64,000 bases of DNA from Candidatus Peribacteria bacterium (lineage in GTDB: Bacteria > Patescibacteriota > Gracilibacteria > Peribacterales > Peribacteraceae). Each line of letters starts with the position of its first letter. Within the stretch, counting starts at the first letter, position 1. Location of the stretch: positions 133,812 through 197,811 of the forward strand of contig CALRAD010000001.1 in the NCBI GenBank assembly GCA_943350395.1, read 5' to 3'. Made by a program: the position numbers and the translations under genes. Shown here piece after piece: positions 6,913 through 59,590 of this stretch. The notes beneath the pieces are model-generated. The model had not been told where the DNA came from and searched no databases. It saw only the letters and a program-made list of their open reading frames with translations.

Positions 6913-8331
6913 ATGTTCTCTCGCCGCACGTTTAGCTTCGCGCTCCTCAGCTGCATGCTGCTTTCTGTCGGCGGAGGGGCTCTCGCAGAACAAGCGAGTA
7001 CGTTTAACTACGATGCACAAACATTGACGATGCTGTACGAAGCATCGATCAGGAAAGACGGAAAGGACAGCTACGTCGAAAAGCGCATCATCGATGAGCG
7101 AGCAAAGGTGCGCGCACTTGCAGACCTCGAAGTAAAAACCTTGGTCGAGCCTGCTGAGAAAGATACTCAAGCGACGGAGACTGCCGCACCGACGAAAGCA
7201 GTGGATCGTCAGCGAACGATCGTCCAACTGCTCGAGGATCAGCTGAGTGACCGAAAAGCGGATCTGGAACTCTTAAAAGAAGAGGAGCAACAGTACTATA
7301 TTCGTTCATCTACTCTAGACGAGGGCGCAGATGACCTGAAGCTCACAAAAACCTATCCCGAACTTCTGGCAAAAAAAGCGGTGTTGGAGGAACGAATCGA
7401 CGCATTGGAAGCTGGGCTCGTGTTGCAGAAAGACCGACTCAGCAAATTAAACCGAACTCAGTGGCTCGATCAATTTACGACACTCATTGGATTCTTTAGC
7501 TACCTGCTCATCATCCTCGGCGCCGTGTTCCTGGAACGGATGCTCCGAAGACGCGTCGCTCGAAGATTCGAAGAGAAGGGCAGACGCTACATCGTGGCGA
7601 AATTCGTAAGCGCTGGCATCTACTCGATTGCCGCTCTGTGGATCCTTAGCAAAATTCTCTCGGATCATCCCGATGCTCTCGCCTCTCTCGCCATTGTGGG
7701 CGCCGGTATCGCCATTGCGCTGCAGGACGTCGTCAAAGACTTCATGGGGTGGATCATCATCCTTCAACGACGTCTCTATAAACTCGGAAACCGTGTCTCG
7801 ATCGGGCAGTACACGGGCGATGTCGTCGACATCGGACCGCTTCGCACCACGATGCTTGAGATCAGCGTCGGCAACACCTTCAATGCACACGAACGCACGG
7901 GGAAAATCCTCTATCTACCGAATTCTCTCGTTCTCAAAGAATCAGTTCTCAACTACAACACGACATCGGACTTCATGAGCGTCGAAGTCCAAGTAACCAT
8001 CACCTACGCAAGCAACTGGCACAAAGCTGAACAAATCCTTAGGGATGTCCTTCTGAAGCAAACAAAAGAATTTGCAGAACTTGCCCGTACCCAACAGCGG
8101 AGGAGAACGGCTCTCTTCTACACCATGTGGGAAGTCGGCGAACCCGAGATCCATGTCGATCTTGCGAGCAGCGGCGTTCTCTTCACGCTCAAGTTCATCG
8201 TCCCGATCGGCAAACGCAGATCGGTCGTCACGGCGTTATCCCGGGAAATCCTCGAACAATTTAACGCCGATCGCGAAGTGGAACTCGCCTACAACACGAT
8301 TCAGATCGTCGGTGGCAAAGAAGTAAGCTGA
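6913..8331 (+). CDS. MscS-family mechanosensitive channel with N-terminal signal peptide and coiled-coil region
   Basis: The C-terminal half has LQDVVKDFMGWIIILQRRLYKLGNRVSIGQYTGDVVDIGPLRTTMLEI, the MscS beta domain, preceded by TM helices. Confidence 0.85.
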   Translation: MFSRRTFSFALLSCMLLSVGGGALAEQASTFNYDAQTLTMLYEASIRKDGKDSYVEKRIIDERAKVRALADLEVKTLVEPAEKDTQATETAAPTKAVDRQRTIVQLLEDQLSDRKADLELLKEEEQQYYIRSSTLDEGADDLKLTKTYPELLAKKAVLEERIDALEAGLVLQKDRLSKLNRTQWLDQFTTLIGFFSYLLIILGAVFLERMLRRRVARRFEEKGRRYIVAKFVSAGIYSIAALWILSKILSDHPDALASLAIVGAGIAIALQDVVKDFMGWIIILQRRLYKLGNRVSIGQYTGDVVDIGPLRTTMLEISVGNTFNAHERTGKILYLPNSLVLKESVLNYNTTSDFMSVEVQVTITYASNWHKAEQILRDVLLKQTKEFAELARTQQRRRTALFYTMWEVGEPEIHVDLASSGVLFTLKFIVPIGKRRSVVTALSREILEQFNADREVELAYNTIQIVGGKEVS

Positions 8332-8376
8332 TAAAAATCTAAAACAATAAAAACCAAAATCCAAGACGGTGATAAC

Positions 8377-8411
8377 GTTTTGGAATTTGGATTTTTAATT
8401 TTGGAATTTCC
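8377..8411 (-). repeat. GGAAATTCCAAA-type 35-nt repeat, intergenic copy
   Basis: Minus-strand reading is GGAAATTCCAAAATTAAAAATCCAAATTCCAAAAC. Related copies lie at 36604-36636 and 56958-56994. Confidence 0.8.
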
Positions 8412-8830
8412 TACATTCGGTATTTCTCGATGTATTTCTTCAGGAGTACCTCCAGTGTTTTTTTCTCGGACGCAGAAAAAACATTCATACAATCTTTCGC
8501 ACGAACAGAAAGCAAGATCTTCAGTTGCGCACCGGCTTCGACTCCCTTCTTCGTGAGAACCAATGACGATACGCGCCGATCGTTCTCCTGCAGAGAACGA
8601 ATGATCAGCTCTTTCTTCTCCAGTCCCGAAACGACTTGGGTGATGTTGCTCTTATGACAACACATTTCTCTGCTCATTGCGGACATCGAAATCTTCCCAT
8701 CGGCAATTTTCAGGAGAATCGCTGCCTGACAATGATTGATATCGAGTGCGGAGAGCGCATCATTGAGCTCGCGCTCGCAGCAGGCTGAGGCGGCCTTGAG
8801 GGTATTGCAGAGGCAGAGCGAATCGTCCAT
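8411..8830 (-). CDS. MarR-family transcriptional regulator
   Basis: Winged-helix core: LDINHCQAAILLKIADGKISMSAMSREMCCHKSNITQVVSGLEKKELIIR..NDRRV..LTKKG. Confidence 0.8.
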   Translation of the reverse strand: MDDSLCLCNTLKAASACCERELNDALSALDINHCQAAILLKIADGKISMSAMSREMCCHKSNITQVVSGLEKKELIIRSLQENDRRVSSLVLTKKGVEAGAQLKILLSVRAKDCMNVFSASEKKTLEVLLKKYIEKYRM

Positions 8831-34590: not shown

Positions 34591-35938
34591 GGAGAGAAGA
34601 GGTAAAGTGTTGAAATTGCTTCTGTGCCTGATTCACAAGCATTGGCATGCCATCACATACACGATACCCGAGTTTTCCCGCATCGCGCATGAACGAGGTG
34701 ATTTTCCCATAACGCAGGTCAATCGCGACTGCGGATTTGGAAGAAGGCTTCGGAACAGGAAGACTCACATCTTCGGATACGGCACAGATAACAGCATCCG
34801 ACTTGAAAGACGCTACGTAACACATCGGCTCTATCGAAACACAAAATTTCTGAAGTGCTGCTTTTGCTTTCTTCGTATTGCGGGCAAAGATCGTGATACT
34901 TGCATTTGTATTCAGACGTCGTATCGCAATAATGGCTGAGGGAAGGGCTCCGCCTGCACCAAGAATAGCAATGTCTTTCGCTTTCTTTAGTTCCGGATAG
35001 CCCTTCTGTATGCCATACACATCCGTATTGAACGCTCTGAAGCCTGTACCAGACTTCACCAGTGTGTTCGCAACACCAAGTCTGCGCGTAATAGCGTCGT
35101 GCTTTTTCGCCATCGCGAACGCCTCTCTCTTGAACGGTGCGGTAACAGAGAAACCCTGCACGCCTATCTTCTGGAGAATCTTTATCGTCTTCTTAAAATT
35201 CTCCGTAGGAAAACAGGAATACAGAGCATTGATCTTGTGCTTTCGGAAAAGGGTATTATGAATGACAGGGCTTAAAGAAGAGACAATCTGATTGCCTCCG
35301 ATAATGCCAAACAGAGCTGGCGCCTGCCTTGCCGGTAGGCAGGTTCTCGCCTGCGGCAATAATCGATAGAACGACAGAGGAAGCTGCCCGATTGCCGAAG
35401 GTTCTGTGCCATCAAGAAATGTATAGGTCAGCTCATTTCTTATCGGTGAGGTGACACGAAGAAGATGCGCCTTCTCACCCATGCCTGAAACAGTAGATCG
35501 TATACTTTTTTTGTTCAATAATTCCTGCAGATTCCAAAGCTTTAAAACATCATCGTAGTCATTCACTACTGTTGCCAGCTTGATCATCCATGGTTTTAAT
35601 GAATACATTTTTTGTACAATATTTTTCAATGCTGTCAGGGCTGGAGTGGATTTGTAATCATGCAAACTAAGTATTACTTTTACTCTTATCGGAAGAGAAC
35701 GAAGCAGTAAGCATTCAGCCGTATCAAGATCAACGTAGGAAGGCTTGAATCGCCGAATGAATCCAAGGCCTGCACCTCTCGGAGAGACAAGAATCGGCAA
35801 CGATGAATCGAATGCCTTCACATTCGGCGTAATATCTCCGCGTATTTCCAGAAGCTTTGCACCTGCTTTCTTTGCCTTCAATGCAAACTGTCTTGCACGC
35901 TTCGTTGCCGAGAGAGGAAGAGTGACGACGAGCATCAT
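34580..35938 (-). CDS. aroDE: bifunctional type I 3-dehydroquinate dehydratase / shikimate dehydrogenase
   Basis: The N-terminal domain has LLEIRGD and SLHDY (AroD). The C-terminal domain has FGIIGGNQIVSSLSPVIHN, NTD and GAGGA (AroE). It is a single 452-aa ORF. Confidence 0.88.
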   Translation of the reverse strand: MMLVVTLPLSATKRARQFALKAKKAGAKLLEIRGDITPNVKAFDSSLPILVSPRGAGLGFIRRFKPSYVDLDTAECLLLRSLPIRVKVILSLHDYKSTPALTALKNIVQKMYSLKPWMIKLATVVNDYDDVLKLWNLQELLNKKSIRSTVSGMGEKAHLLRVTSPIRNELTYTFLDGTEPSAIGQLPLSFYRLLPQARTCLPARQAPALFGIIGGNQIVSSLSPVIHNTLFRKHKINALYSCFPTENFKKTIKILQKIGVQGFSVTAPFKREAFAMAKKHDAITRRLGVANTLVKSGTGFRAFNTDVYGIQKGYPELKKAKDIAILGAGGALPSAIIAIRRLNTNASITIFARNTKKAKAALQKFCVSIEPMCYVASFKSDAVICAVSEDVSLPVPKPSSKSAVAIDLRYGKITSFMRDAGKLGYRVCDGMPMLVNQAQKQFQHFTSSLHGK

Positions 35939-37743
35939 CAGAGTGAATCGGAATGAACGAGTGCGCGCAAAGCCTTCACTGCAAAGGGAACCTGAGCGGA
36001 ATAGCGGAGTTTCGGCGGAATCATGATCGTTGCAACTTCTTTGTAGTTGGGCGCTCGCTCGACGAGAAGCTTATGGACCTCTTCATGAAGCGGAAGTCCT
36101 GTGATCGCAGGTCTCTTCCCCGATTCCAGTCGTTGAAGAAGTTCTGCCTTCGTAGCTTGCACCCAAATCACCACGGCACGACCCTTGAGCATTGATCTGG
36201 TCTTTTTGGACTCCGTCGCACCGCCACCGAGAGAGACAACGCTTCCTGCGGTCAAAAGAGCTTCGATGATTTGCTCTTCTTTCTCTCGAAACTCCGCCCA
36301 TCCGTGCGCCGCAATGTATTCCTTGATCGGACCATGCTTTTCCACAAAAACATGATCGCTGTCCTTCGACTTCAGTTTGAGCTTAGCAGCGAGCCGTCTC
36401 CCGAGACTCGACTTACCGGCTCCGCGCATGCCGACGATGACGATCGGTCGGGGCGATGCGGTGACCGAGACTAGATGATCGAAGAATGCAGGATAACTTT
36501 TTGCAGTGCAGTGAGGATCCTTGATGCCAATGGCTCCGATCTTCAGACCAAGAATAGAAAAGCACATCGCCATGCGGTGATCGTCGTGAGGATCAAGACA
36601 GATATTGGAATTTTGTTTTTGGTTTTTGGAATTTCCTACAATGATTACACCATCGGAATGCTCTGTTATCAAAACGCCGACTTTCTTCAGCTCACTTGTG
36701 ATCACGGCAAGTCGATCGCATTCTTTGTGACGGAGATTTTTGGCACCCGTGATCGTCGTCTTGCCATTTCGGAATGCCGCAAGCACCGCAAGGTTCATCA
36801 CTTGATCCGGAATGCTGCTGCAGTCGATCGTGATATCACCCCTCTTTCTCAAGGTGACGATGAACTCCGGAAGACTTCGATCCGCCTGAGTGGAATCAGC
36901 ATGAAGATTAACGCAGCGGATACGACTCCGCGAGAGTTCGTTCAGAACAAGCCAGCTACCGGCCGCACTCCAGTCTCCTTCGACGTCGTACGTTACGACA
37001 CCGCTAATGGGGACGCGCGCGCTAATTTGAACAATAAATGTATTCAATTTTCTCTCTATCTTGAAGCCATAATCCATCATTGTCTGCAATGTAAGTTCCA
37101 TATATGACTCCGACGCAAGCGGACCGTCCAATTCGATCGTCAGACCGCTTGGCAGCATCGGTGCGATGAGCAGAAGTGACGTAAGGTATTGGCTGCTCAT
37201 GCTTGCATTCAAACGAACGACCGAGCCCTTAAGGCTGCCACCTTTCACTCTGATCGGAGGACAGCCATTGGTATCCGTGATCTCCGCACCGAGCGAGCGC
37301 AGAGCCGAGACAAGATCCCCAATTGGACGTTTCTGCATGTGTGCATCTCCTGTCAGTGTCCAGTCACCGGGAACAAGAGCCGCAACGGACACGAGAAAAC
37401 GGAGAGCGGTTCCTGCGTTGTGGCAATCGAGCACGGTGCCTTCCTCCACCCCCATCCTCGATCCTTCCCCCGAGGGGGGAAGGAAGCTCTGCTGAGGGAG
37501 ACCTCCAATGATCTTCAACTCTCCTTTTTCCTTATCAATCCATTGAATCTGAAATTTCATCTTCTGCAAATTCTCGACCATGACGAGCACATCATCACAC
37601 GGAGTGGCATTCCGAATGATCGTGGTACCCTGTGAAAAACAGGCGCAGATGATCGCACGATTGCTGTGTGACTTCGAGCCGGGAAGTATCAGATCTGCTT
37701 CGACGGGAAATTGAAGTGCCGGCACATCGAAGACTGTATTCAT
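35938..37743 (-). CDS. aroAK: bifunctional EPSP synthase / shikimate kinase
   Basis: LPGSKSHSNRAIICA, LDCHNAGTALRF and RHKECDR (AroA), followed by IVIVGMRGAGKSSLGRRLA and LGGGA (AroK). It is a single 601-aa ORF. Confidence 0.9.
   Translation of the reverse strand: MNTVFDVPALQFPVEADLILPGSKSHSNRAIICACFSQGTTIIRNATPCDDVLVMVENLQKMKFQIQWIDKEKGELKIIGGLPQQSFLPPSGEGSRMGVEEGTVLDCHNAGTALRFLVSVAALVPGDWTLTGDAHMQKRPIGDLVSALRSLGAEITDTNGCPPIRVKGGSLKGSVVRLNASMSSQYLTSLLLIAPMLPSGLTIELDGPLASESYMELTLQTMMDYGFKIERKLNTFIVQISARVPISGVVTYDVEGDWSAAGSWLVLNELSRSRIRCVNLHADSTQADRSLPEFIVTLRKRGDITIDCSSIPDQVMNLAVLAAFRNGKTTITGAKNLRHKECDRLAVITSELKKVGVLITEHSDGVIIVGNSKNQKQNSNICLDPHDDHRMAMCFSILGLKIGAIGIKDPHCTAKSYPAFFDHLVSVTASPRPIVIVGMRGAGKSSLGRRLAAKLKLKSKDSDHVFVEKHGPIKEYIAAHGWAEFREKEEQIIEALLTAGSVVSLGGGATESKKTRSMLKGRAVVIWVQATKAELLQRLESGKRPAITGLPLHEEVHKLLVERAPNYKEVATIMIPPKLRYSAQVPFAVKALRALVHSDSL
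36604..36636 (-). repeat. GGAAATTCCAAA-type repeat, in-frame copy inside aroA~aroK
   Basis: Minus-strand reading GGAAATTCCAAAAACCAAAAACAAAATTCCAAT encodes GNSKNQKQNSN in the EPSP synthase part. Confidence 0.8.
37449..37491. repeat. family C hairpin repeat, in-frame copy inside aroA
   Basis: CCCCCATCCTCGATCCTTCCCCCGAGGGGGGAAGGAAGCTCTG shares both flanks with 43334-43380. It encodes ..QSFLPPSGEGSRMGV.. Confidence 0.8.
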
Positions 37744-54670: not shown

Positions 54671-54788
54671 GAAGAAAAGAAGATGTACTGAAGAACTACA
54701 GTAAACTGAAGAAAGGATAATGTCAATTTTCTATGACATAGGAGTTTCATGCGTTCTCAGTGCGGATATTTTGCTCTACACTCGGAGC

Positions 54789-57700
54789 ATGTTCGATCCC
54801 GTCGACCCAAAGCAGAGATTCCCAGACCTTGAGCTTGGCATTCTCAAATACTGGAGCGAAGAAGATACGTTCAAGCGTTCGATCGGCAGGCGCGCGGGCG
54901 GGGAGGAATTCAGCTTCTACGACGGACCACCGTTTGCAACAGGGCTCCCCCACTATGGACACATCCTTGCGGGGACGATCAAAGACGTTATTCCTCGATA
55001 CCAGACAATGCGCGGCAAGCACGTGCGTCGTCGCTTCGGCTGGGACTGTCACGGACTTCCGGTCGAGAATGAAATCGAGAAAGAACATCATCTGAAGAGC
55101 AAAAAAGACATCGAAGCGCTCGGCGTTTCGAAGTTTAATGATCTCTGCCGAGGAGCCGTACAGCGATACACGAAAGAATGGAAGAACACCGTCGAGCGTA
55201 TGGGTCGCTGGGTCGATATGGATCACGACTACAGAACGATGGACCCGGATTACATGGAGAGCATCTGGTGGGTCTTTAAGCAGCTTCATTCACAGGAACT
55301 GATCTACGAAGGACACAAGCCGATGCACGTGTGCCCGCGGTGCCAGACGCCTTTGTCGAATTTCGAGGTCACACAGGGATACAAAGACATTCAGGACTAT
55401 TCGGTCACGGCGATGTTTGAGCTGGATGCCCCCACCCCAACCCCTCCCCCGAGGGGGGAGGGGCAACGTAAAAATGGCTCGGAAAAAATTTTCGTGCTCG
55501 CATGGACAACAACCGGATGGACACTCCCCGGGAATCTCTTTCTCGCCGTGCATCCCGAGACGACCTATGTCACGGTGAAGTGTGAAGGCAAGAAATTCAT
55601 CGTTGCAAAAGATCTGACAGAGAAAGTGTTTGCAAAAAAAGAATACAAGATAGAGAAAGAGCAAATGGGGAAAGACCTCGTCGGCCTTACGTACAAGCCA
55701 CTATTCCCGTACTACGCAGAGCAGTTTCAGGGCAAAGCCTTTAGGATTGTTGCAGGCGATTTCGTGACGACGACCGACGGTACCGGCATCGTGCATATCG
55801 CAACGGGCTACGGTGACGACGACTTTCAGGTCGGACAGCGCGAGAAGACCGGTGTGCTGCAACATGTCGACATCGACGGAACGTTCAAGAAAGAGGTGAC
55901 AGATTTCGCGGGAAAAGATGCAAAGCCGAAAGATGATCATCAGAGTGGGGATAAGATGATTGCAAAGTGGCTGCAAAAACATGGCAAACTTTTCGCCTCT
56001 GAAAGCTTCAGTCACAGCTACCCGCACTGCTGGCGTTGCGACTCGCCTCTCCTCAACTACGCAACGAGCTCGTGGTTCGTGGCCGTCGAGAAGATCAAAG
56101 AGAGGATGCTCGAAGCGAACGCGAAGACCGAGTGGGTGCCAAGCCACATTCGAGACGGTCGCTTCGGAAAATGGCTCGAGGGTGCGCGTGACTGGGCGAT
56201 CTCCCGCAGTCGTTACTGGGGCACGCCACTCCCAATCTGGCGAAACAGCATCACGGGGCAGATCGAAGTCATCGGTTCCAGAGACGAGCTTGCGGCAAAA
56301 GCACCAAATCGGTTCACGAAGATCATTGTCGCAAGACACGCGGAGAGCGAAGGCAACGTCGCGAAGTTCTACCAAGGAAAACTCCCAGGAACGGCGCTCA
56401 CCGAGACTGGACAGAAGCAAGCCAAAACGCTCGCAAAATCAGTCGAGAGCAAGAAAAACGAAAGTCTACCGCTTAAAACCATCTACTGCTCCCCTCTCCA
56501 GAGAACGCAGCAAACGGCTCGTGCGATCGCGGAAGAAACGGGAGCGAACATCGTGATCGATGAACGTCTCCGCGAAGTCGACTTCGGCGAGTACGAGGGC
56601 AAGCACATCGATTTCGACGATCTCACCTTTATCAAGGAACGTCGAGCGCACAAGATGAAGAAAGGTCAGATCGAGAGCGTTTTTCATTTTCAGGGCATGG
56701 AAACATGGGAACATACGCAACTTCGAATGTCTGCATTTCTGGATGACGTGCTGAAGAAACACCGTGGCGAGACGATCACCGTCGTCACGCACGCCGACCT
56801 CGTGATGAATGCGATTCATCACTTCACGGGGATCGATCCGCATAAGATCGTCCATCAGCCGTATCCCGACGTCGCCTCGCACAGAGTCTTCTACTGGGAT
56901 CATGAGAGAGGTGCGCAGATGGATCTGCACAAGGAGACAGTGGATGAGATTACGTGGGGAAATTCCAAAACTGAAATTCCAAATTCCAAAAATGCTGTCG
57001 AGCTCACGCTCGTGCGGCATGGAGAGACCGATTTGAACAAACAGAAGATCGTGCAGGGATCGGAGATCAATGCGCAGCTGAATAAAGTCGGAAGAGCGCA
57101 GGCGAAGAAAGCTGGTGAATCGCTCAAAGGAAAAATGTTTGACGTGATCATCTCTTCGCACCTCGACCGTGCATCGGAAACGGCACGCATCATTGCCAAA
57201 GAAATCGGTCTCGAATACGCAGGGGGATTCGAAATCTTCCGCGAACGGGATCTCGGTGACTGGACAGGCAGACCCATCGAAGAGATTCTTGCACAGGAAA
57301 AAGCTCCAAAAAAACAAGTAGGTGCCGTCATGCTGAAAGGAACACCGAAAGGCGGTGAATCATTCAATCAATTCACCACGCGCGTGCAAAAAGCGCACGA
57401 TTGGCTCCTGAAAGAATATGCGGGAAAGAAAGTGCTTCTCGTCGCACACGGCGGATTCAATCGAGCATCCTTGATGATTGCGCAGGATATTCCGTATGAA
57501 ACCATCGCAACAATCCATCCAAAGAACGGTCAAATTGAAGAAATACAACTTTCACCCCAGATGCGAAGGATCGACGAAGTCCTCGACTGCTGGTTCGAGT
57601 CGGGCTCGATGCCCTATGCGCAAGAACATTTCCCGTTTGATGTCCAAAACGGTAAGCCCGATTCCCCGCGCGGCTTTCCCGCTGATTTCATCGCCGAAGG

Positions 57701-59156
57701 CTTGGACCAGACCCGCGGATGGTTCTACACACTCACAGTCCTCTCGTCCGCACTCTTCCAGTGTCCTGCATTCCGTCACTGCATCGTGAATGGCATCGTA
57801 CTTGCGGAAGACGGCAAGAAAATGAGCAAGCGTCTCAAGAACTACCCAGAACCGACCGTTGTCGCAGAGCGTCATGGAGCAGACGCCGTGCGCTTCGCAC
57901 TGATGAGTTCGCCTGCAGTCCGCGGCGAAGACCTCCGGTTCTCCGAGAAGCTGATCGAAGAAACCGTACGAGCGGTCCTGCTCCCTCTCTGGAATGCATA
58001 CCGCCTCTTCGTGACGTATGCGAATGCCGCAGACTGGAAACCATCACTCGATTTTTCTTTGAAGAACGGACAGTCCAAACATCTCCTGGATCGATGGATC
58101 GTTCTCAAAACTCAGGCACTTGTGAACAATATGACAACCGAACTCGACAGTTACGACTTGTCGGCAACGTGCGCGCACCTCACAGACTCGATCGATGATC
58201 TCACCAACTGGTACGTGCGCTTAAGTCGAAGACGTCTTTCGGGGAAAGAGGAAGAGCAGAAAGACCTGCCAGCCGAAGCCTCCTCAGAGGCGCAGGCTGG
58301 AGCGCTCGACACGCTCTACCGTGTGCTCCTCGCCAACGCACAACTCCTCGCTCCGTTCTGTCCATTCGTCTCCGAAGCGATCTATCTGAATCTCGTGAGC
58401 GAAGATCACGGGTCGATCCACTTCACCGATTGGCCGCAGTCCGTGAAAATCAGCGATGACGATCAACATATCCTCACGCAGATGGATAACACCCGAAGCA
58501 TTGTCACTCTCGGCCTCAAACTCCGAAGCGACGCGAAGATCCAAGTACGTACGCCACTCTCGTCGGTGACCGTTGCGCTCCCGACGAAAGACAGCGAACA
58601 GATCGTGAAAGATCTCATCAAAGAAGAGCTCAATGTAAAGCAGGTCCTTTCAGTGATCGACGCGAGTTCGATTGCCTCTCGCTTCCTGCAGATCGATGCA
58701 CGCAAAGCCGGTCCGCGTTTCGGCTCGAAAGTGCAGGAGCTGATCCGCGCAGGGAAAGAAGGAAAATTTGAGGAGAAAGACGGCGTCTTCTCCGTCATGG
58801 GAGAAGCACTACTCCCCGGAGAAGCGACGATCGTCTACAAATCCAAAGAAGGAAAGAATGTCGCGGCCGACCGCGGCATTGTCGTCAGTCTCGATACGAT
58901 ACTCACGGAAGCGTTCACGCTCGAAGGTCAAGCCAGAGAGCTCGTGCATGCGATACAAATCCTCCGGAAAGATGCAGGACTCGAATTCACCGACACGATC
59001 AAACTGACGGTGACCGGAGCTGACAACATCATGACCGTTCATCAGGATCTGATCCTGCAGGAAACGAAAGCGACGCTTGCTCCGAACAAAGGCAAAAAAG
59101 AAACAGTCGAGATCGATGGAATAAAAGTGCAAATAACATTCGAACGAAGTAATTGA
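54789..59156 (+). CDS. ileS: isoleucine--tRNA ligase (type 2) with two inserted histidine-phosphatase domains
   Basis: PPFATGLPHYGHIL (HIGH), WAISRSRYWGTPLPIW, EVLDCWFESGSMPYA, GKKMSKRLKNYP (KMSKS). The inserts carry ARHAESEGN and VRHGETDLN motifs. The start was set at MFDPVDPKQRFP. Confidence 0.93.
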   Translation: MFDPVDPKQRFPDLELGILKYWSEEDTFKRSIGRRAGGEEFSFYDGPPFATGLPHYGHILAGTIKDVIPRYQTMRGKHVRRRFGWDCHGLPVENEIEKEHHLKSKKDIEALGVSKFNDLCRGAVQRYTKEWKNTVERMGRWVDMDHDYRTMDPDYMESIWWVFKQLHSQELIYEGHKPMHVCPRCQTPLSNFEVTQGYKDIQDYSVTAMFELDAPTPTPPPRGEGQRKNGSEKIFVLAWTTTGWTLPGNLFLAVHPETTYVTVKCEGKKFIVAKDLTEKVFAKKEYKIEKEQMGKDLVGLTYKPLFPYYAEQFQGKAFRIVAGDFVTTTDGTGIVHIATGYGDDDFQVGQREKTGVLQHVDIDGTFKKEVTDFAGKDAKPKDDHQSGDKMIAKWLQKHGKLFASESFSHSYPHCWRCDSPLLNYATSSWFVAVEKIKERMLEANAKTEWVPSHIRDGRFGKWLEGARDWAISRSRYWGTPLPIWRNSITGQIEVIGSRDELAAKAPNRFTKIIVARHAESEGNVAKFYQGKLPGTALTETGQKQAKTLAKSVESKKNESLPLKTIYCSPLQRTQQTARAIAEETGANIVIDERLREVDFGEYEGKHIDFDDLTFIKERRAHKMKKGQIESVFHFQGMETWEHTQLRMSAFLDDVLKKHRGETITVVTHADLVMNAIHHFTGIDPHKIVHQPYPDVASHRVFYWDHERGAQMDLHKETVDEITWGNSKTEIPNSKNAVELTLVRHGETDLNKQKIVQGSEINAQLNKVGRAQAKKAGESLKGKMFDVIISSHLDRASETARIIAKEIGLEYAGGFEIFRERDLGDWTGRPIEEILAQEKAPKKQVGAVMLKGTPKGGESFNQFTTRVQKAHDWLLKEYAGKKVLLVAHGGFNRASLMIAQDIPYETIATIHPKNGQIEEIQLSPQMRRIDEVLDCWFESGSMPYAQEHFPFDVQNGKPDSPRGFPADFIAEGLDQTRGWFYTLTVLSSALFQCPAFRHCIVNGIVLAEDGKKMSKRLKNYPEPTVVAERHGADAVRFALMSSPAVRGEDLRFSEKLIEETVRAVLLPLWNAYRLFVTYANAADWKPSLDFSLKNGQSKHLLDRWIVLKTQALVNNMTTELDSYDLSATCAHLTDSIDDLTNWYVRLSRRRLSGKEEEQKDLPAEASSEAQAGALDTLYRVLLANAQLLAPFCPFVSEAIYLNLVSEDHGSIHFTDWPQSVKISDDDQHILTQMDNTRSIVTLGLKLRSDAKIQVRTPLSSVTVALPTKDSEQIVKDLIKEELNVKQVLSVIDASSIASRFLQIDARKAGPRFGSKVQELIRAGKEGKFEEKDGVFSVMGEALLPGEATIVYKSKEGKNVAADRGIVVSLDTILTEAFTLEGQARELVHAIQILRKDAGLEFTDTIKLTVTGADNIMTVHQDLILQETKATLAPNKGKKETVEIDGIKVQITFERSN

Positions 59157-59182
59157 GAATGTAGAATGTAGAATGTAGAATG
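59157..59182. repeat. left inverted repeat of the four-helix-bundle cassette, (GAATGTA)x3.7
   Basis: GAATGTAGAATGTAGAATGTAGAATG begins immediately after the ileS stop. Confidence 0.85.
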
Positions 59183-59187
59183 ATGCA

Positions 59188-59562
59188 ATGCAAAAATCCC
59201 CTGACAAGAATCCTGTGCTTGTAAAGAGCTATGCTTTTGCATTACGAACAATCAAGGTCTATCAATTCTTAGCAAAAAAGAAACAGGAATTTGTATTAAG
59301 CAAACAATTCTTACGTTCAGGCACAAGTATCGGAGCAAATATAAAAGAAGGCATTTATGCGCAAAGCAGAAAGGAATTTATTGCAAAGTTAAATATCTCA
59401 CTCAAAGAAGCGCATGAATCCGAATACTGGATTTTTCTGATGCGCGACAGCGGATATTTGACTGTGATCCAGGCACAATCACTTCTTAAGGACGTCGATG
59501 AATTGATCAGATTGCTGACTTCGATCATTAAAACAAGCCGAAAGAACAATTCTACATTCTAA
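59188..59562 (+). CDS. four-helix-bundle protein (23S rRNA intervening-sequence protein family, TIGR02436-like)
   Basis: SYAFALRTIKVYQFL....E.VLSKQFLRSGTSIGANIKEG..AQSRKEFIAKLNISLKEAHESEYWI.L is the family signature. Confidence 0.85.
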   Translation: MQKSPDKNPVLVKSYAFALRTIKVYQFLAKKKQEFVLSKQFLRSGTSIGANIKEGIYAQSRKEFIAKLNISLKEAHESEYWIFLMRDSGYLTVIQAQSLLKDVDELIRLLTSIIKTSRKNNSTF

Positions 59563-59579
59563 ATTCTACATTCTAAATT
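59549..59579. repeat. right inverted repeat of the four-helix-bundle cassette
   Basis: ATTCTACATTCTAAATTCTACATTCTAAATT is the reverse complement of TAGAATG/TAGAATT heptamers and overlaps the last codons of the ORF. Confidence 0.85.
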
Positions 59580-59590
59580 TATCCCTCCCT

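What the first reader, a model, noticed from the sequence alone, without database searches (positions are those of the whole stretch)
56958..56994. A ~35-nt GGAAATTCCAAA repeat inserted in frame in two essential genes and once intergenically
There are three copies. The first is at 56958-56994 in ileS: GGAAATTCCAAAACTGAAATTCCAAATTCCAAAAATG, encoding GNSKTEIPNSKN. The second is at 36604-36636 in the aroA part of aroA~aroK on the minus strand, encoding GNSKNQKQNSN. The third is at 8377-8411, intergenic and abutting the marR-like stop. Both coding copies have the same orientation and reading frame relative to the host gene (GGA AAT TCC AAA = G N S K), and both keep the ORF open. This behaviour recalls Rickettsia palindromic elements, which insert in frame into protein genes. 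Here the element is AT-rich, in contrast to the surrounding composition.
Basis: seen in the sequence. Interest (0 to 1): 0.6.

Follow-up and report, generated by a model that had tools for sequence, protein, structure and literature searches.

The report
Heptamer-repeat module inside essential genes
A roughly 30-base, A-rich module built from 7-base units (AAATTCC-type) mostly forms hairpins just after stop codons in this small uncultured Peribacteria genome, and single copies are also read in frame in floppy loops of ileS, aroA and three other genes; related species carry different 7-base units at the same spots, so it behaves more like a replaceable filler than a Rickettsia-style jumping element.

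Summary
**Observation.** It is confirmed. All three copies lie exactly where stated and belong to a real repeat family. AAATTCCAAAA is the commonest 11-mer in the 1.25-Mb genome. A model built only from intergenic arms finds 43 arm matches at about 23 loci; a reversed-genome decoy gives none.

**What the unit is.** It is a heptad-periodic arm of about 30 nt: AAATTCC AAAANNN AAAAACC AAATTCC.
- About 18 loci are inverted pairs or single arms next to genes. The pairs form 60-80-nt hairpins, and 15 of the 18 lie within 19 nt of a gene's 3' end.
- The "intergenic copy" is the right arm of such a hairpin.
- Five copies are single arms inside genes (ileS, aroA, dnaE, a GT2 gene, rnpA). All have the A-rich strand as sense, and none can fold.

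**Comparison with relatives.**
- The peptides are derived and sit in hypervariable loops or linkers.
- These sites are long-standing "slots". Sister species hold other heptamer units there (GAAAGTG, AATTCTC, CAAAGCT, AGCGRNN), or nothing.
- Intergenic sites show clean filled, empty and replaced states with no target duplication.

**Verdict.** This is one instance of heptamer modules, which other notes of this scan report across Peribacteria. I found no published description. How the modules spread is unresolved.

The parts
56958..56994 (+). Family F1 heptamer module, five 7-nt units (GG AAATTCC AAAACTG AAATTCC AAATTCC AAAAATG). It is translated as GNSKTEIPNSKN in the linker between DLHKETVDEITW and the second histidine-phosphatase domain of IleRS.
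   Evidence: nhmmer E=1.7e-4 with a profile built from intergenic arms only. TRF finds period 7. No RNA fold (z -1.4). An orthologous copy exists in G002, and other heptamer units occupy the site in G005, G004, G013 and L093-L097.
36604..36636 (-). Family F1 heptamer module (GG AAATTCC AAAAACC AAAAACA AAATTCC AAT). It is translated as GNSKNQKQNSN in the loop before LDPHDDHRMAM of the EPSP synthase part of AroA-AroK.
   Evidence: nhmmer E=0.015. The loop varies from 10 to 25 aa among orthologues; G002 has AATTCTC heptads there and G003 has CAAAGCT heptads plus another dispersed repeat. AlphaFold: coil at 370-380, block pLDDT 66. No fold (z +0.33).
8333..8411 (.). It fills the whole spacer between the TGA of the MscS-like ORF (8329-8331) and the TAG of the MarR-like ORF (8411-8413).
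   Evidence: Fold -25.1 kcal/mol with z -6.2 on the + strand, and -17.7 with z -3.0 on the - strand. An orthologous hairpin with the same loop exists in G002. In G005 it is absent and the two stop codons overlap. No Rfam match.
54720..59156 (+). Host gene ileS: 1478-aa ORF with tRNA-synt_1, two His_Phos_1 domains, Anticodon_1 and DUF5915.
   Evidence: Orthologues in 31 of 31 relatives.
35938..37743 (-). Host gene aroA-aroK fusion (EPSP_synthase + SKI), 601 aa.
6913..8331 (+). MscS-like gene whose stop lies 1 nt before the hairpin.
8411..8830 (-). MarR-family gene whose stop codon overlaps the last base of the hairpin's right arm.

Best explanation
**What it is.** The repeat is one family (F1, unit AAATTCC/AAAATCC/AAAAACC) of the heptamer modules of this Peribacteria genus. 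A module is an array of about 30 nt made of four to five 7-nt units.

**Between genes.** Modules usually occur as inverted pairs. These pairs form AU-rich hairpins of 60-80 nt placed directly after stop codons. The genome has no Rho, so they plausibly act as bidirectional intrinsic terminators or 3'-end stabilisers. That function is inferred, not shown.

**Inside genes.** Single modules, always with the A-rich strand as sense, occupy structurally permissive 'slots': disordered loops and inter-domain linkers. There they are simply translated into hydrophilic N/S/K/Q/P-rich filler of 10-13 residues that neither folds as RNA nor, most likely, affects the enzyme.

**History.** The slots are older than their present content. 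The same positions in ileS, aroA, dnaE, rnpA, a GT2 gene and carA hold different heptamer units in different species. The ileS and aroA copies are therefore the current occupants of replaceable slots, written in as whole modules: outer AAATTCC units and inner AAAAACC-like units, as in the intergenic consensus. They were not grown locally by slippage and are not fresh transposition of a palindromic element.

**Shown:** family membership, anatomy, location, derived state, slot turnover, clean presence/absence.

**Inferred:** terminator function, neutrality of the peptide, and replacement of whole modules by gene conversion or an unknown enzyme.
For: **Family and periodicity.**: 43 arm hits against 0 in the decoy, and TRF period 7 with 4.3-4.4 copies per arm.

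**Hairpins.** z is -3.0 to -7.7, and 0 of 200 shuffles fold as well.

**Position.**
- 15 of 18 intergenic loci lie within 19 nt of a 3' gene end. Eleven are between tandem genes and 6 between convergent genes. One counts as divergent only when ORFs under 120 aa are ignored; it lies 4 nt from the stop of an 82-aa ORF.
- The Rho_RNA_bind family is absent from the genome.

**Coding copies.**
- In G000: ileS, aroA, dnaE, GT2 and rnpA.
- In G002 only: carA and a purP-like gene. G000's purP-like protein is 7 aa shorter with conserved flanks.
- All 7 independent copies have the A-rich strand as sense.
- The coding copies are unstructured as RNA and lie in a lower-confidence coil of the protein model.

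**Slots with changing units.**
- ileS linker: F1 in G000 and G002; GAAAGTG in G005 and L095-97; AGCGRNN in L093/94; AAGTCAC in G013.
- aroA loop.
- dnaE linker and 3' end.
- rnpA and GT2 loops.
- carA linker.

**Intergenic turnover.**
- The window hairpin is present in G002 and absent in G005, where the two stops overlap.
- C4:70411 is empty in G003, with flanks 91-99% identical, and holds an ACCTACC-unit hairpin in G005.
- C6:53480 holds three different hairpins in three species.

**Other families behave alike.** A GC-rich repeat sits in aroA. G003's aroA loop matches an intergenic repeat of G002 at 30 of 34 positions.
Against: - Terminator activity and population-level indels are therefore untested.
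- Hairpin stability shows no bias toward the transcribed strand: 6 loci favour sense and 5 antisense. The stems are AU-rich, unlike canonical terminators, and the simple terminator scan flags only a weak inner stem.
- Position at 3' ends could simply reflect where insertions are tolerated in a genome that is 92% coding.
- No donor, enzyme or recombination tract for the 'overwrite' was identified.
- On the IleRS tree, G005 (which lacks F1) is sister to G000 with 89/94 support, and G002 (which shares three F1 sites with G000) lies outside. Shared sites therefore need either several losses in G005 or a wrong or recombinant tree.
- Some unit differences (CCAAATTCC against CCAAACCCC in dnaE and rnpA of G005) could be ordinary divergence under GC drift rather than replacement.
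Confidence: 0.6

Rival explanations
1. RPE- or MITE-like selfish mobile element. A palindromic non-autonomous element transposes around the genome and now and then lands in frame in genes. The coding copies would be remnants that kept only the harmless arm.
For: - Dispersed family with conserved, non-uniform internal order.
- Clean filled and empty orthologous sites.
- In-frame copies in housekeeping genes.
- Two HUH/Y1 (RAYT-like) transposase genes in the genome.
- RPEs behave similarly in outcome (PMC10969869).
Against: - No target-site duplication and no conserved target at the empty/filled site.
- No parent IS was found.
- The Y1 genes are flanked by different, GC-rich palindromes, not by F1.
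- The coding copies are single complete arms, never whole palindromes.
- The same sites are occupied by other units in other species, which a random-insertion model predicts only if the insertion rate is extremely high.
Confidence: 0.2
2. Purely local heptanucleotide microsatellites. Each array arose and is kept in place by polymerase slippage on 7-nt units, as proposed for bacterial long SSRs. Similarity between loci would then reflect a shared mutational bias, with no transfer.
For: - The genome has many period-7 arrays with many different units.
- Heptamers are the commonest long SSR class in prokaryotes, and slippage on a 7-nt polymerase footprint has been proposed (summarised in PMC4679880).
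- Units differ between species at the same site.
Against: - F1 arms are not uniform tandem arrays. They share a fixed order of different units (AAATTCC, AAAANNN, AAAAACC, AAATTCC) at more than 20 loci and in the coding copies.
- Single-unit slippage inside ileS, aroA or dnaE would shift the frame of an essential gene.
- Filled and empty sites differ by the whole hairpin.
Confidence: 0.12
3. A selected sequence signal, for example a DNA-uptake-like sequence or the binding site of a nucleic-acid-binding protein. Inverted pairs would double as terminators, and intragenic copies would be tolerated only in certain orientations and frames.
For: - Top 11-mer of the genome.
- Inverted pairs at gene ends, and a strict sense-strand bias of 7 of 7 coding copies.
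- From my own knowledge: uptake sequences of Neisseria and Haemophilus show the same three features.
- Cold-shock proteins bind heptamer repeats one protein per unit (PMC4679880).
Against: - Only about 43 copies of the 10-mer in 1.25 Mb, far fewer than uptake sequences, which occur about once per kb.
- The motif is nearly absent from the sister species G005, and several unrelated units play the same positional role in one genome. No single word is conserved.
Confidence: 0.06
4. Chance resemblance of AT-rich low-complexity coding segments to an intergenic repeat.
For: The segments are short and of low complexity. The GT2 and rnpA copies score only E of about 1.
Against: - The decoy search gives 0 hits at E<10, against 43 real hits.
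- Three of the genome's four exact GGAAATTCCAAA 12-mers lie in this window.
- The ileS and aroA copies reach E=1.7e-4 and 0.015 with a model that excluded them.
Confidence: 0.02

Closest known systems
Rickettsia palindromic elements (RPE; Ogata et al. 2000, as summarised in PMC10969869)
   Same: Dispersed repeat DNA is found both between genes and in frame inside unrelated housekeeping genes. It adds a short peptide in positions compatible with the fold.
   Different: RPEs are about 100-150 bp and are inserted whole, so they are translated as 30-50 aa. They are not 7-nt periodic. Here the coding copies are single arms of 30-37 nt (10-13 aa) that cannot fold. The sites are recurrent slots whose content changes between species. 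The lineage is CPR, not Rickettsia.
Heptanucleotide repeats of bacteria: cyanobacterial STRR (Mazel et al. 1990, from my own knowledge), long SSRs of Mrazek et al. 2007, and TAACTGA repeats of Beggiatoaceae and Cyanobacteria (PMC4679880)
   Same: Short arrays of two to six 7-nt units, mostly intergenic, with many copies per genome. Some overlap gene ends. A slippage or single-strand-binding rationale has been proposed.
   Different: Those are direct tandem arrays of one unit, mostly upstream of genes. TAACTGA carries stop codons and is excluded from coding sequence in the forward orientation. Here the module has a fixed order of non-identical units, is usually paired into a hairpin at 3' ends, and is translated inside essential genes.
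Terminator-like dispersed repeats: SPRITE of Streptococcus pneumoniae (listed in PMC10969869), and REP/BIME elements of enterobacteria (from my own knowledge)
   Same: A repeated hairpin family sitting at gene 3' ends, which may terminate or stabilise transcripts.
   Different: REPs carry a conserved GTAG head and are mobilised by RAYT genes that they flank. F1 has neither feature: the RAYT-like genes here are flanked by other, GC-rich palindromes. Neither SPRITE nor REP is heptad-periodic or routinely translated.
DNA uptake sequences (DUS/USS) of Neisseria and Pasteurellaceae (from my own knowledge)
   Same: The over-represented word occurs as inverted pairs forming terminators. Its intragenic copies are confined to tolerated orientations and frames in poorly conserved protein segments.
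   Different: The density is 20 to 50 times lower here. The word is not conserved even within the genus. Several unrelated units share the same role.

Membership tests
Rickettsia palindromic elements (RPE) | Whole palindromic element of about 100-150 bp, able to fold, inserted as a unit | tested here: not met
   The coding copies are 33-37 nt single arms. Folding of ±30 nt gives z -1.38 and +0.33 with the repeat unpaired. The intergenic hairpins are 60-80 nt.
Rickettsia palindromic elements (RPE) | In-frame presence in unrelated protein genes, with the peptide absent from orthologues | tested here: met
   ileS, aroA, dnaE, GT2 and rnpA in G000; carA and a purP-like gene in G002. The peptide is absent or different in orthologues.
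Rickettsia palindromic elements (RPE) | Sequence homology to the RPE-1 to RPE-10 families, in a Rickettsiales host | not tested
No RPE sequences were compared. Rfam gave no match for the hairpin.
REP elements / RAYT system | Imperfect palindrome of 20-40 nt with a conserved GT[AG]G head; copies flank a RAYT (Y1 HUH transposase) gene | tested here: not met
   F1 arms have no GTAG head. Two Y1_Tnp genes exist, but their flanks carry GC-rich palindromes such as CGCGGGTNGGTANACCCGCG, not F1.
MITE | Terminal inverted repeats plus target-site duplication, and a related autonomous IS | tested here: not met
   Inverted arms are present. The filled (G000 C4:70411) versus empty (G003) site, with flanks 91-99% identical, shows no duplication. 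No IS with F1 termini was seen, though only PF01797 was searched.
Heptanucleotide simple repeats (STRR / long SSR) | Tandem array of 7-nt units | tested here: met
   TRF finds period 7 with 3.3-5.1 copies for F1 arms and for other families.
Heptanucleotide simple repeats (STRR / long SSR) | Uniform unit; arises and varies locally by slippage (copy-number polymorphism) | tested here: inconclusive
   Units within an arm differ in a fixed order shared by more than 20 loci, which argues against a purely local origin.
Rho-independent (intrinsic) terminator | Stable stem-loop followed by a U-tract at the 3' end of a transcription unit | tested here: inconclusive
   Hairpins are stable (z down to -7.7). 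15 of 18 lie within 19 nt of a stop. The inner stem CCAAAUUCCAAG is followed by UUUUU, and Rho is absent. But the stems are AU-rich, there is no strand bias, and only a weak hit appears in the consensus scan.
Rho-independent (intrinsic) terminator | Transcript 3' ends map to the U-tract | not testable with these tools
DNA uptake sequence (DUS/USS) | Hundreds to thousands of copies (about one per kb) of one conserved word across the genus | tested here: not met
   43 copies of AAATTCCAAA in 1.25 Mb. 11-mer counts are 29, 75 and 11 in G000, G002 and G003, but 3 or fewer in G001, G004 and G005.

The most novel reading that the evidence does not exclude
Peribacteria may possess an undescribed copy-and-overwrite micro-element system. 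Modules of about 30 nt, made of 7-nt units, would be written as whole units into fixed slots, both at gene ends (as hairpins) and in protein loops of essential genes. Each species' currently active unit would replace the previous occupant. The agent could be an ssDNA-acting enzyme (for example the HUH/Y1 proteins) or a dedicated conversion process, rather than slippage or classical transposition.
Probability: 0.25. Interest if true: 0.8.

Novelty: new variant of a known kind. Interest (0 to 1): 0.55.

Why it matters
- **Protein loops.** If the slot-and-overwrite picture holds, essential enzymes of a minimal-genome CPR lineage carry loops whose coding DNA is exchanged with the pool of intergenic hairpin repeats. 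That would be a mechanism of protein-loop turnover and of terminator renewal not described for any bacterium.
- **Annotation.** These N/S/K-rich or P-rich inserts are repeat-derived filler. They are not functional motifs and not assembly errors.
- **Markers and experiments.** Unit identity at a slot is a fast-evolving marker for Peribacteria species. It is also a concrete substrate for testing what writes heptamer arrays, an open question since cyanobacterial STRR repeats were described.

Tried and rejected
- **Rfam.** An E-value-threshold scan of the hairpin gave no family.
- **REP/RAYT link.** Y1 transposase genes exist, but other, GC-rich palindromes flank them.
- **RNA-level strand selection.** The free-energy difference between sense and antisense hairpins is 6 to 5, so there is no bias.
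- **Hidden partner arm.** Folding of the ileS and aroA contexts shows none.
- **Target-site duplication or conserved target.** None at the G000/G003 filled and empty site or among flanks.
- **Closest relative, G003.** Its ileS linker is not in the assembly; only the N-terminal 441 aa lie on a contig end.
- **Metagenome scan for near-identical strains.** The best hit was only 73% identical, so presence/absence among close strains could not be seen.
- **23S_rRNA_IVP four-helix-bundle gene as a regular cargo of heptad hairpins.** There is only one such gene in this genome.
- **Uptake-sequence idea.** The density is far too low and the word is not conserved in the genus.
- **Frame bias.** 5 of 7 copies use the NSK frame, which is not significant after allowing for three frames. 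Only the orientation bias (7 of 7) stands.
Full report
**1. Observation**

- 56958-56994 (+) lies in a 1478-aa IleRS ORF and reads GNSKTEIPNSKN.
- 36604-36636 (-) lies in a 601-aa AroA-AroK fusion and reads GNSKNQKQNSN.
- 8377-8411 abuts the stop of a MarR-family gene.

The 12-mer with up to 1 mismatch occurs 6 times in the window, against 0.53 expected.

The window is C1:133812-197811 of a 1.25-Mb, 27-contig, 51% GC genome. I did not verify that independently. Genome size and the recoded relatives in the same class are consistent with it.

**2. The family**

AAATTCCAAAA is the most frequent 11-mer of the genome, with 29 copies. AAATTCCAAA occurs 43 times.

I built an nhmmer profile from 14 intergenic arms only.
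- It finds 43 arm matches at about 23 loci.
- These include the ileS copy (E=1.7e-4), the aroA copy (E=0.015), a copy in dnaE (E=0.095) and weaker ones in a GT2 gene and in rnpA.
- The reversed genome gives no hit even at E<10.

The arm is about 30 nt and 7-nt periodic, with a fixed order of non-identical units: AAATTCC AAAANNN AAAAACC AAATTCC AA. TRF calls period 7 with 4.3-4.4 copies.

**3. Intergenic anatomy**

Most of the roughly 18 intergenic loci are inverted pairs of arms.
- **Folding.** The hairpins fold at -16 to -33 kcal/mol with z of -3.0 to -7.7, and none of 200 shuffles does as well.
- **Position.** Fifteen of 18 lie within 19 nt of a 3' gene end. Eleven are between tandem genes and 6 between convergent genes. 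One counts as divergent only when ORFs under 120 aa are ignored; it lies 4 nt from the stop of an 82-aa ORF.
- **Rho.** The genome has no Rho RNA-binding domain. A role as bidirectional intrinsic terminators or 3' stabilisers is therefore plausible.
- **Cautions.** That role is only inferred.

**4. Coding copies**

G000 has five: ileS, aroA, dnaE (C5:30769-30799, EKPNSKNEIPSP), a GT2 gene (C16:8510-8539, ENSKNKKLNPN) and rnpA (C4:50581-50610, KNQIPNTKFQ). The last 13 residues of DnaE are also encoded by the left arm of a hairpin.

A 390-kb sample of the sister species G002 adds carA (KFQNPNIKFQE) and a purP-like gene (RNSKNQKPNSN).

- **Orientation and frame.** All seven independent copies have the A-rich strand as sense. 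Five use the AAT-TCC-AAA (NSK) frame. The orientation bias is real, but the frame is not universal. The T-rich strand would encode L/F/W/G-rich peptides, so selection on the peptide is a sufficient explanation.
- **RNA.** The ileS and aroA copies are single arms that do not fold (z -1.38 and +0.33).
- **Protein.** In an AlphaFold model of AroA-AroK (mean pLDDT 89.3), the repeat peptide (residues 370-380) is coil between two strands, with pLDDT 66 for that block.

**5. Comparison with relatives: the peptides are derived and sit in old slots**

*ileS.*
- Most family members have an 8-aa linker between DEITW and the second histidine-phosphatase domain.
- G000 has 13 aa.
- G002 has the orthologous F1 copy, GGAAATTCCAAAAACCAAATTTCAAATTCCAAAGAA.
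- G005 and three metagenome relatives have GAAAGTG units.
- Two other metagenome relatives have AGCGRNN units.
- G013, from another genus, has AAGTCAC units.
- G004 has a tandem GC-rich duplication.

*aroA.*
- The loop before LDPHxDHRMAM ranges from 10 to 25 aa.
- G002 has AATTCTC units at the site.
- The closest relative, G003 (84% aa identity), has CAAAGCT units plus a 33-nt segment. That segment matches an intergenic repeat downstream of ileS in G002 at 30 of 34 positions and recurs elsewhere in G003.

*Other genes.*
- dnaE, rnpA, GT2 and carA show the same pattern.
- G000's purP-like protein lacks G002's module. It is 7 aa shorter, with conserved flanks.

**6. Intergenic turnover**
- The window hairpin has an orthologue with the same loop in G002. 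In G005 it is absent, and the two convergent stop codons overlap (TTAG).
- The hairpin at C4:70411 is absent from G003, although the flanks are 91-99% identical and show no target duplication. In G005 an ACCTACC-unit hairpin replaces it.
- C6:53480 holds three different hairpins in three species.
- C10:22432 is empty in G005.
- C3:40301 is conserved as F1 in G003.
- 11-mer counts are 29 (G000), 75 (G002) and 11 (G003), but 3 or fewer in G001, G004 and G005.
- On an IleRS tree, G005 is sister to G000 (support 89/94) and G002 lies outside. The three F1 sites shared by G000 and G002 therefore imply losses in G005, or an unresolved tree.

**7. Wider context in this genome**

Period-7 arrays with other units build similar hairpins: AGAATGT/ACATTCT, GAATTAW/WTAATTC, GAATCAG and AAAGTGG. 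A GC-rich hairpin family of about 25 copies also has an in-frame copy in aroA. That copy encodes LPPSGEGSRMG, has pLDDT below 50, and is absent from two orthologues.

After finishing my own analysis I read earlier notes of this scan. They report the same heptamer modules in many Peribacteria genomes, including different units at the same sites. I treat those notes as leads, not as evidence.

**8. Mechanism**

Best reading (confidence about 0.6): F1 is one family of dispersed heptamer modules.
- Paired, the modules make hairpins at gene ends.
- Single and sense-oriented, they are translated filler in permissive loops.
- The loops are long-standing slots whose content is replaced as whole modules.

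The shared irregular unit order argues against purely local slippage, and so does the frameshift that single-unit slippage would cause in essential genes. Four points argue against classical MITE- or RPE-type insertion: no target duplication, no parent element, single arms in genes, and recurrence at the same sites. The enzyme or recombination route is unknown. Two RAYT-like HUH genes exist, but they are flanked by other palindromes.

**9. Comparison with known systems and novelty**

- **RPEs.** The outcome resembles RPEs (PMC10969869), but the defining features of whole palindromes of about 100-150 bp are not met.
- **Heptanucleotide repeats.** The 7-nt periodicity links F1 to cyanobacterial STRR, to long SSRs and to TAACTGA arrays (PMC4679880). 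Those are uniform direct arrays that are largely excluded from coding sequence.
- **Literature.** The Peribacteria genome paper mentions only tens-of-bp indels in twelve proteins and no such repeats (PMC4736985). My searches found no description in CPR.

I rate it a new variant of a known kind. This particular finding is one instance of a phenomenon that other notes of this scan report in many Peribacteria genomes.

Noticed in passing
window 54720-59156: IleRS is 1478 aa. Two His_Phos_1 (RHG-motif) domains are inserted around the native DLHKETVDEITW segment of the catalytic core. Both are conserved across the family. Other families of the class have one domain (e.g. G020, 1237 aa) or none (e.g. 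G027, 1037 aa).
   Followed up: partly
window 37449-37491 and about 25 genome loci (e.g. C1:41448, C2:31538): A GC-rich MITE-like hairpin family, CCTCATCCCCTAACCCCTTCTCCG..CGGAGAAGGGGGAGCC, itself with C-runs 7 nt apart. An in-frame copy in aroA encodes LPPSGEGSRMG (AlphaFold pLDDT below 50) and is absent from two orthologues. A related PPPRGEG segment lies in ileS near residue 240.
   Followed up: partly
window 59157-59183, 59188-59562, 59549-59580: Directly after the ileS stop, four AGAATGT units and an inverted ACATTCT-type arm flank a 124-aa 23S_rRNA_IVP (four-helix-bundle, Avd-like) gene. The roughly 360-nt insert is absent from G002 and G005. It is the only such gene in the genome.
   Followed up: partly
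genome C5:21999-22511 and C11:402-605: Two RAYT-like HUH/Y1 transposase genes (PDHCHFLL ... YIHENPV) are flanked by GC-rich REP-like palindromes (CGCGGGTNGGTANACCCGCG; GCGCCCTTCCAGGGCGC). This may be a separate REP/RAYT system.
   Followed up: partly
whole genome G000: No Rho RNA-binding domain (PF07497) was detected in a 97.7%-complete genome.
   Followed up: no
L083 (G002 dnaE linker): The F1 module in G002 dnaE is itself interrupted by a 21-nt mini-hairpin, CTGCCTACCGGACAGGCAGGC (LPTGQAG). A similar CCTGCCTGCCGGTAGGCGGG core lies in a G003 intergenic hairpin. This looks like nested repeat insertion.
   Followed up: no
L024 (G004 ileS linker) and L027 (G001 ileS): G004 carries two tandem GC-rich copies of about 28 nt (GCCCGCCCGGATGCGGTCGGACGGGGAAAGT) in the same ileS linker. 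G001 has an insertion of at least 60 aa, starting LPPSPSPKGRGG, at the other variable ileS site.
   Followed up: no
L031 (G008:C10:20711-25174): The open frame holding IleRS in G008 is listed as 2528 aa, far longer than in any relative. This could be a fusion or read-through.
   Followed up: no
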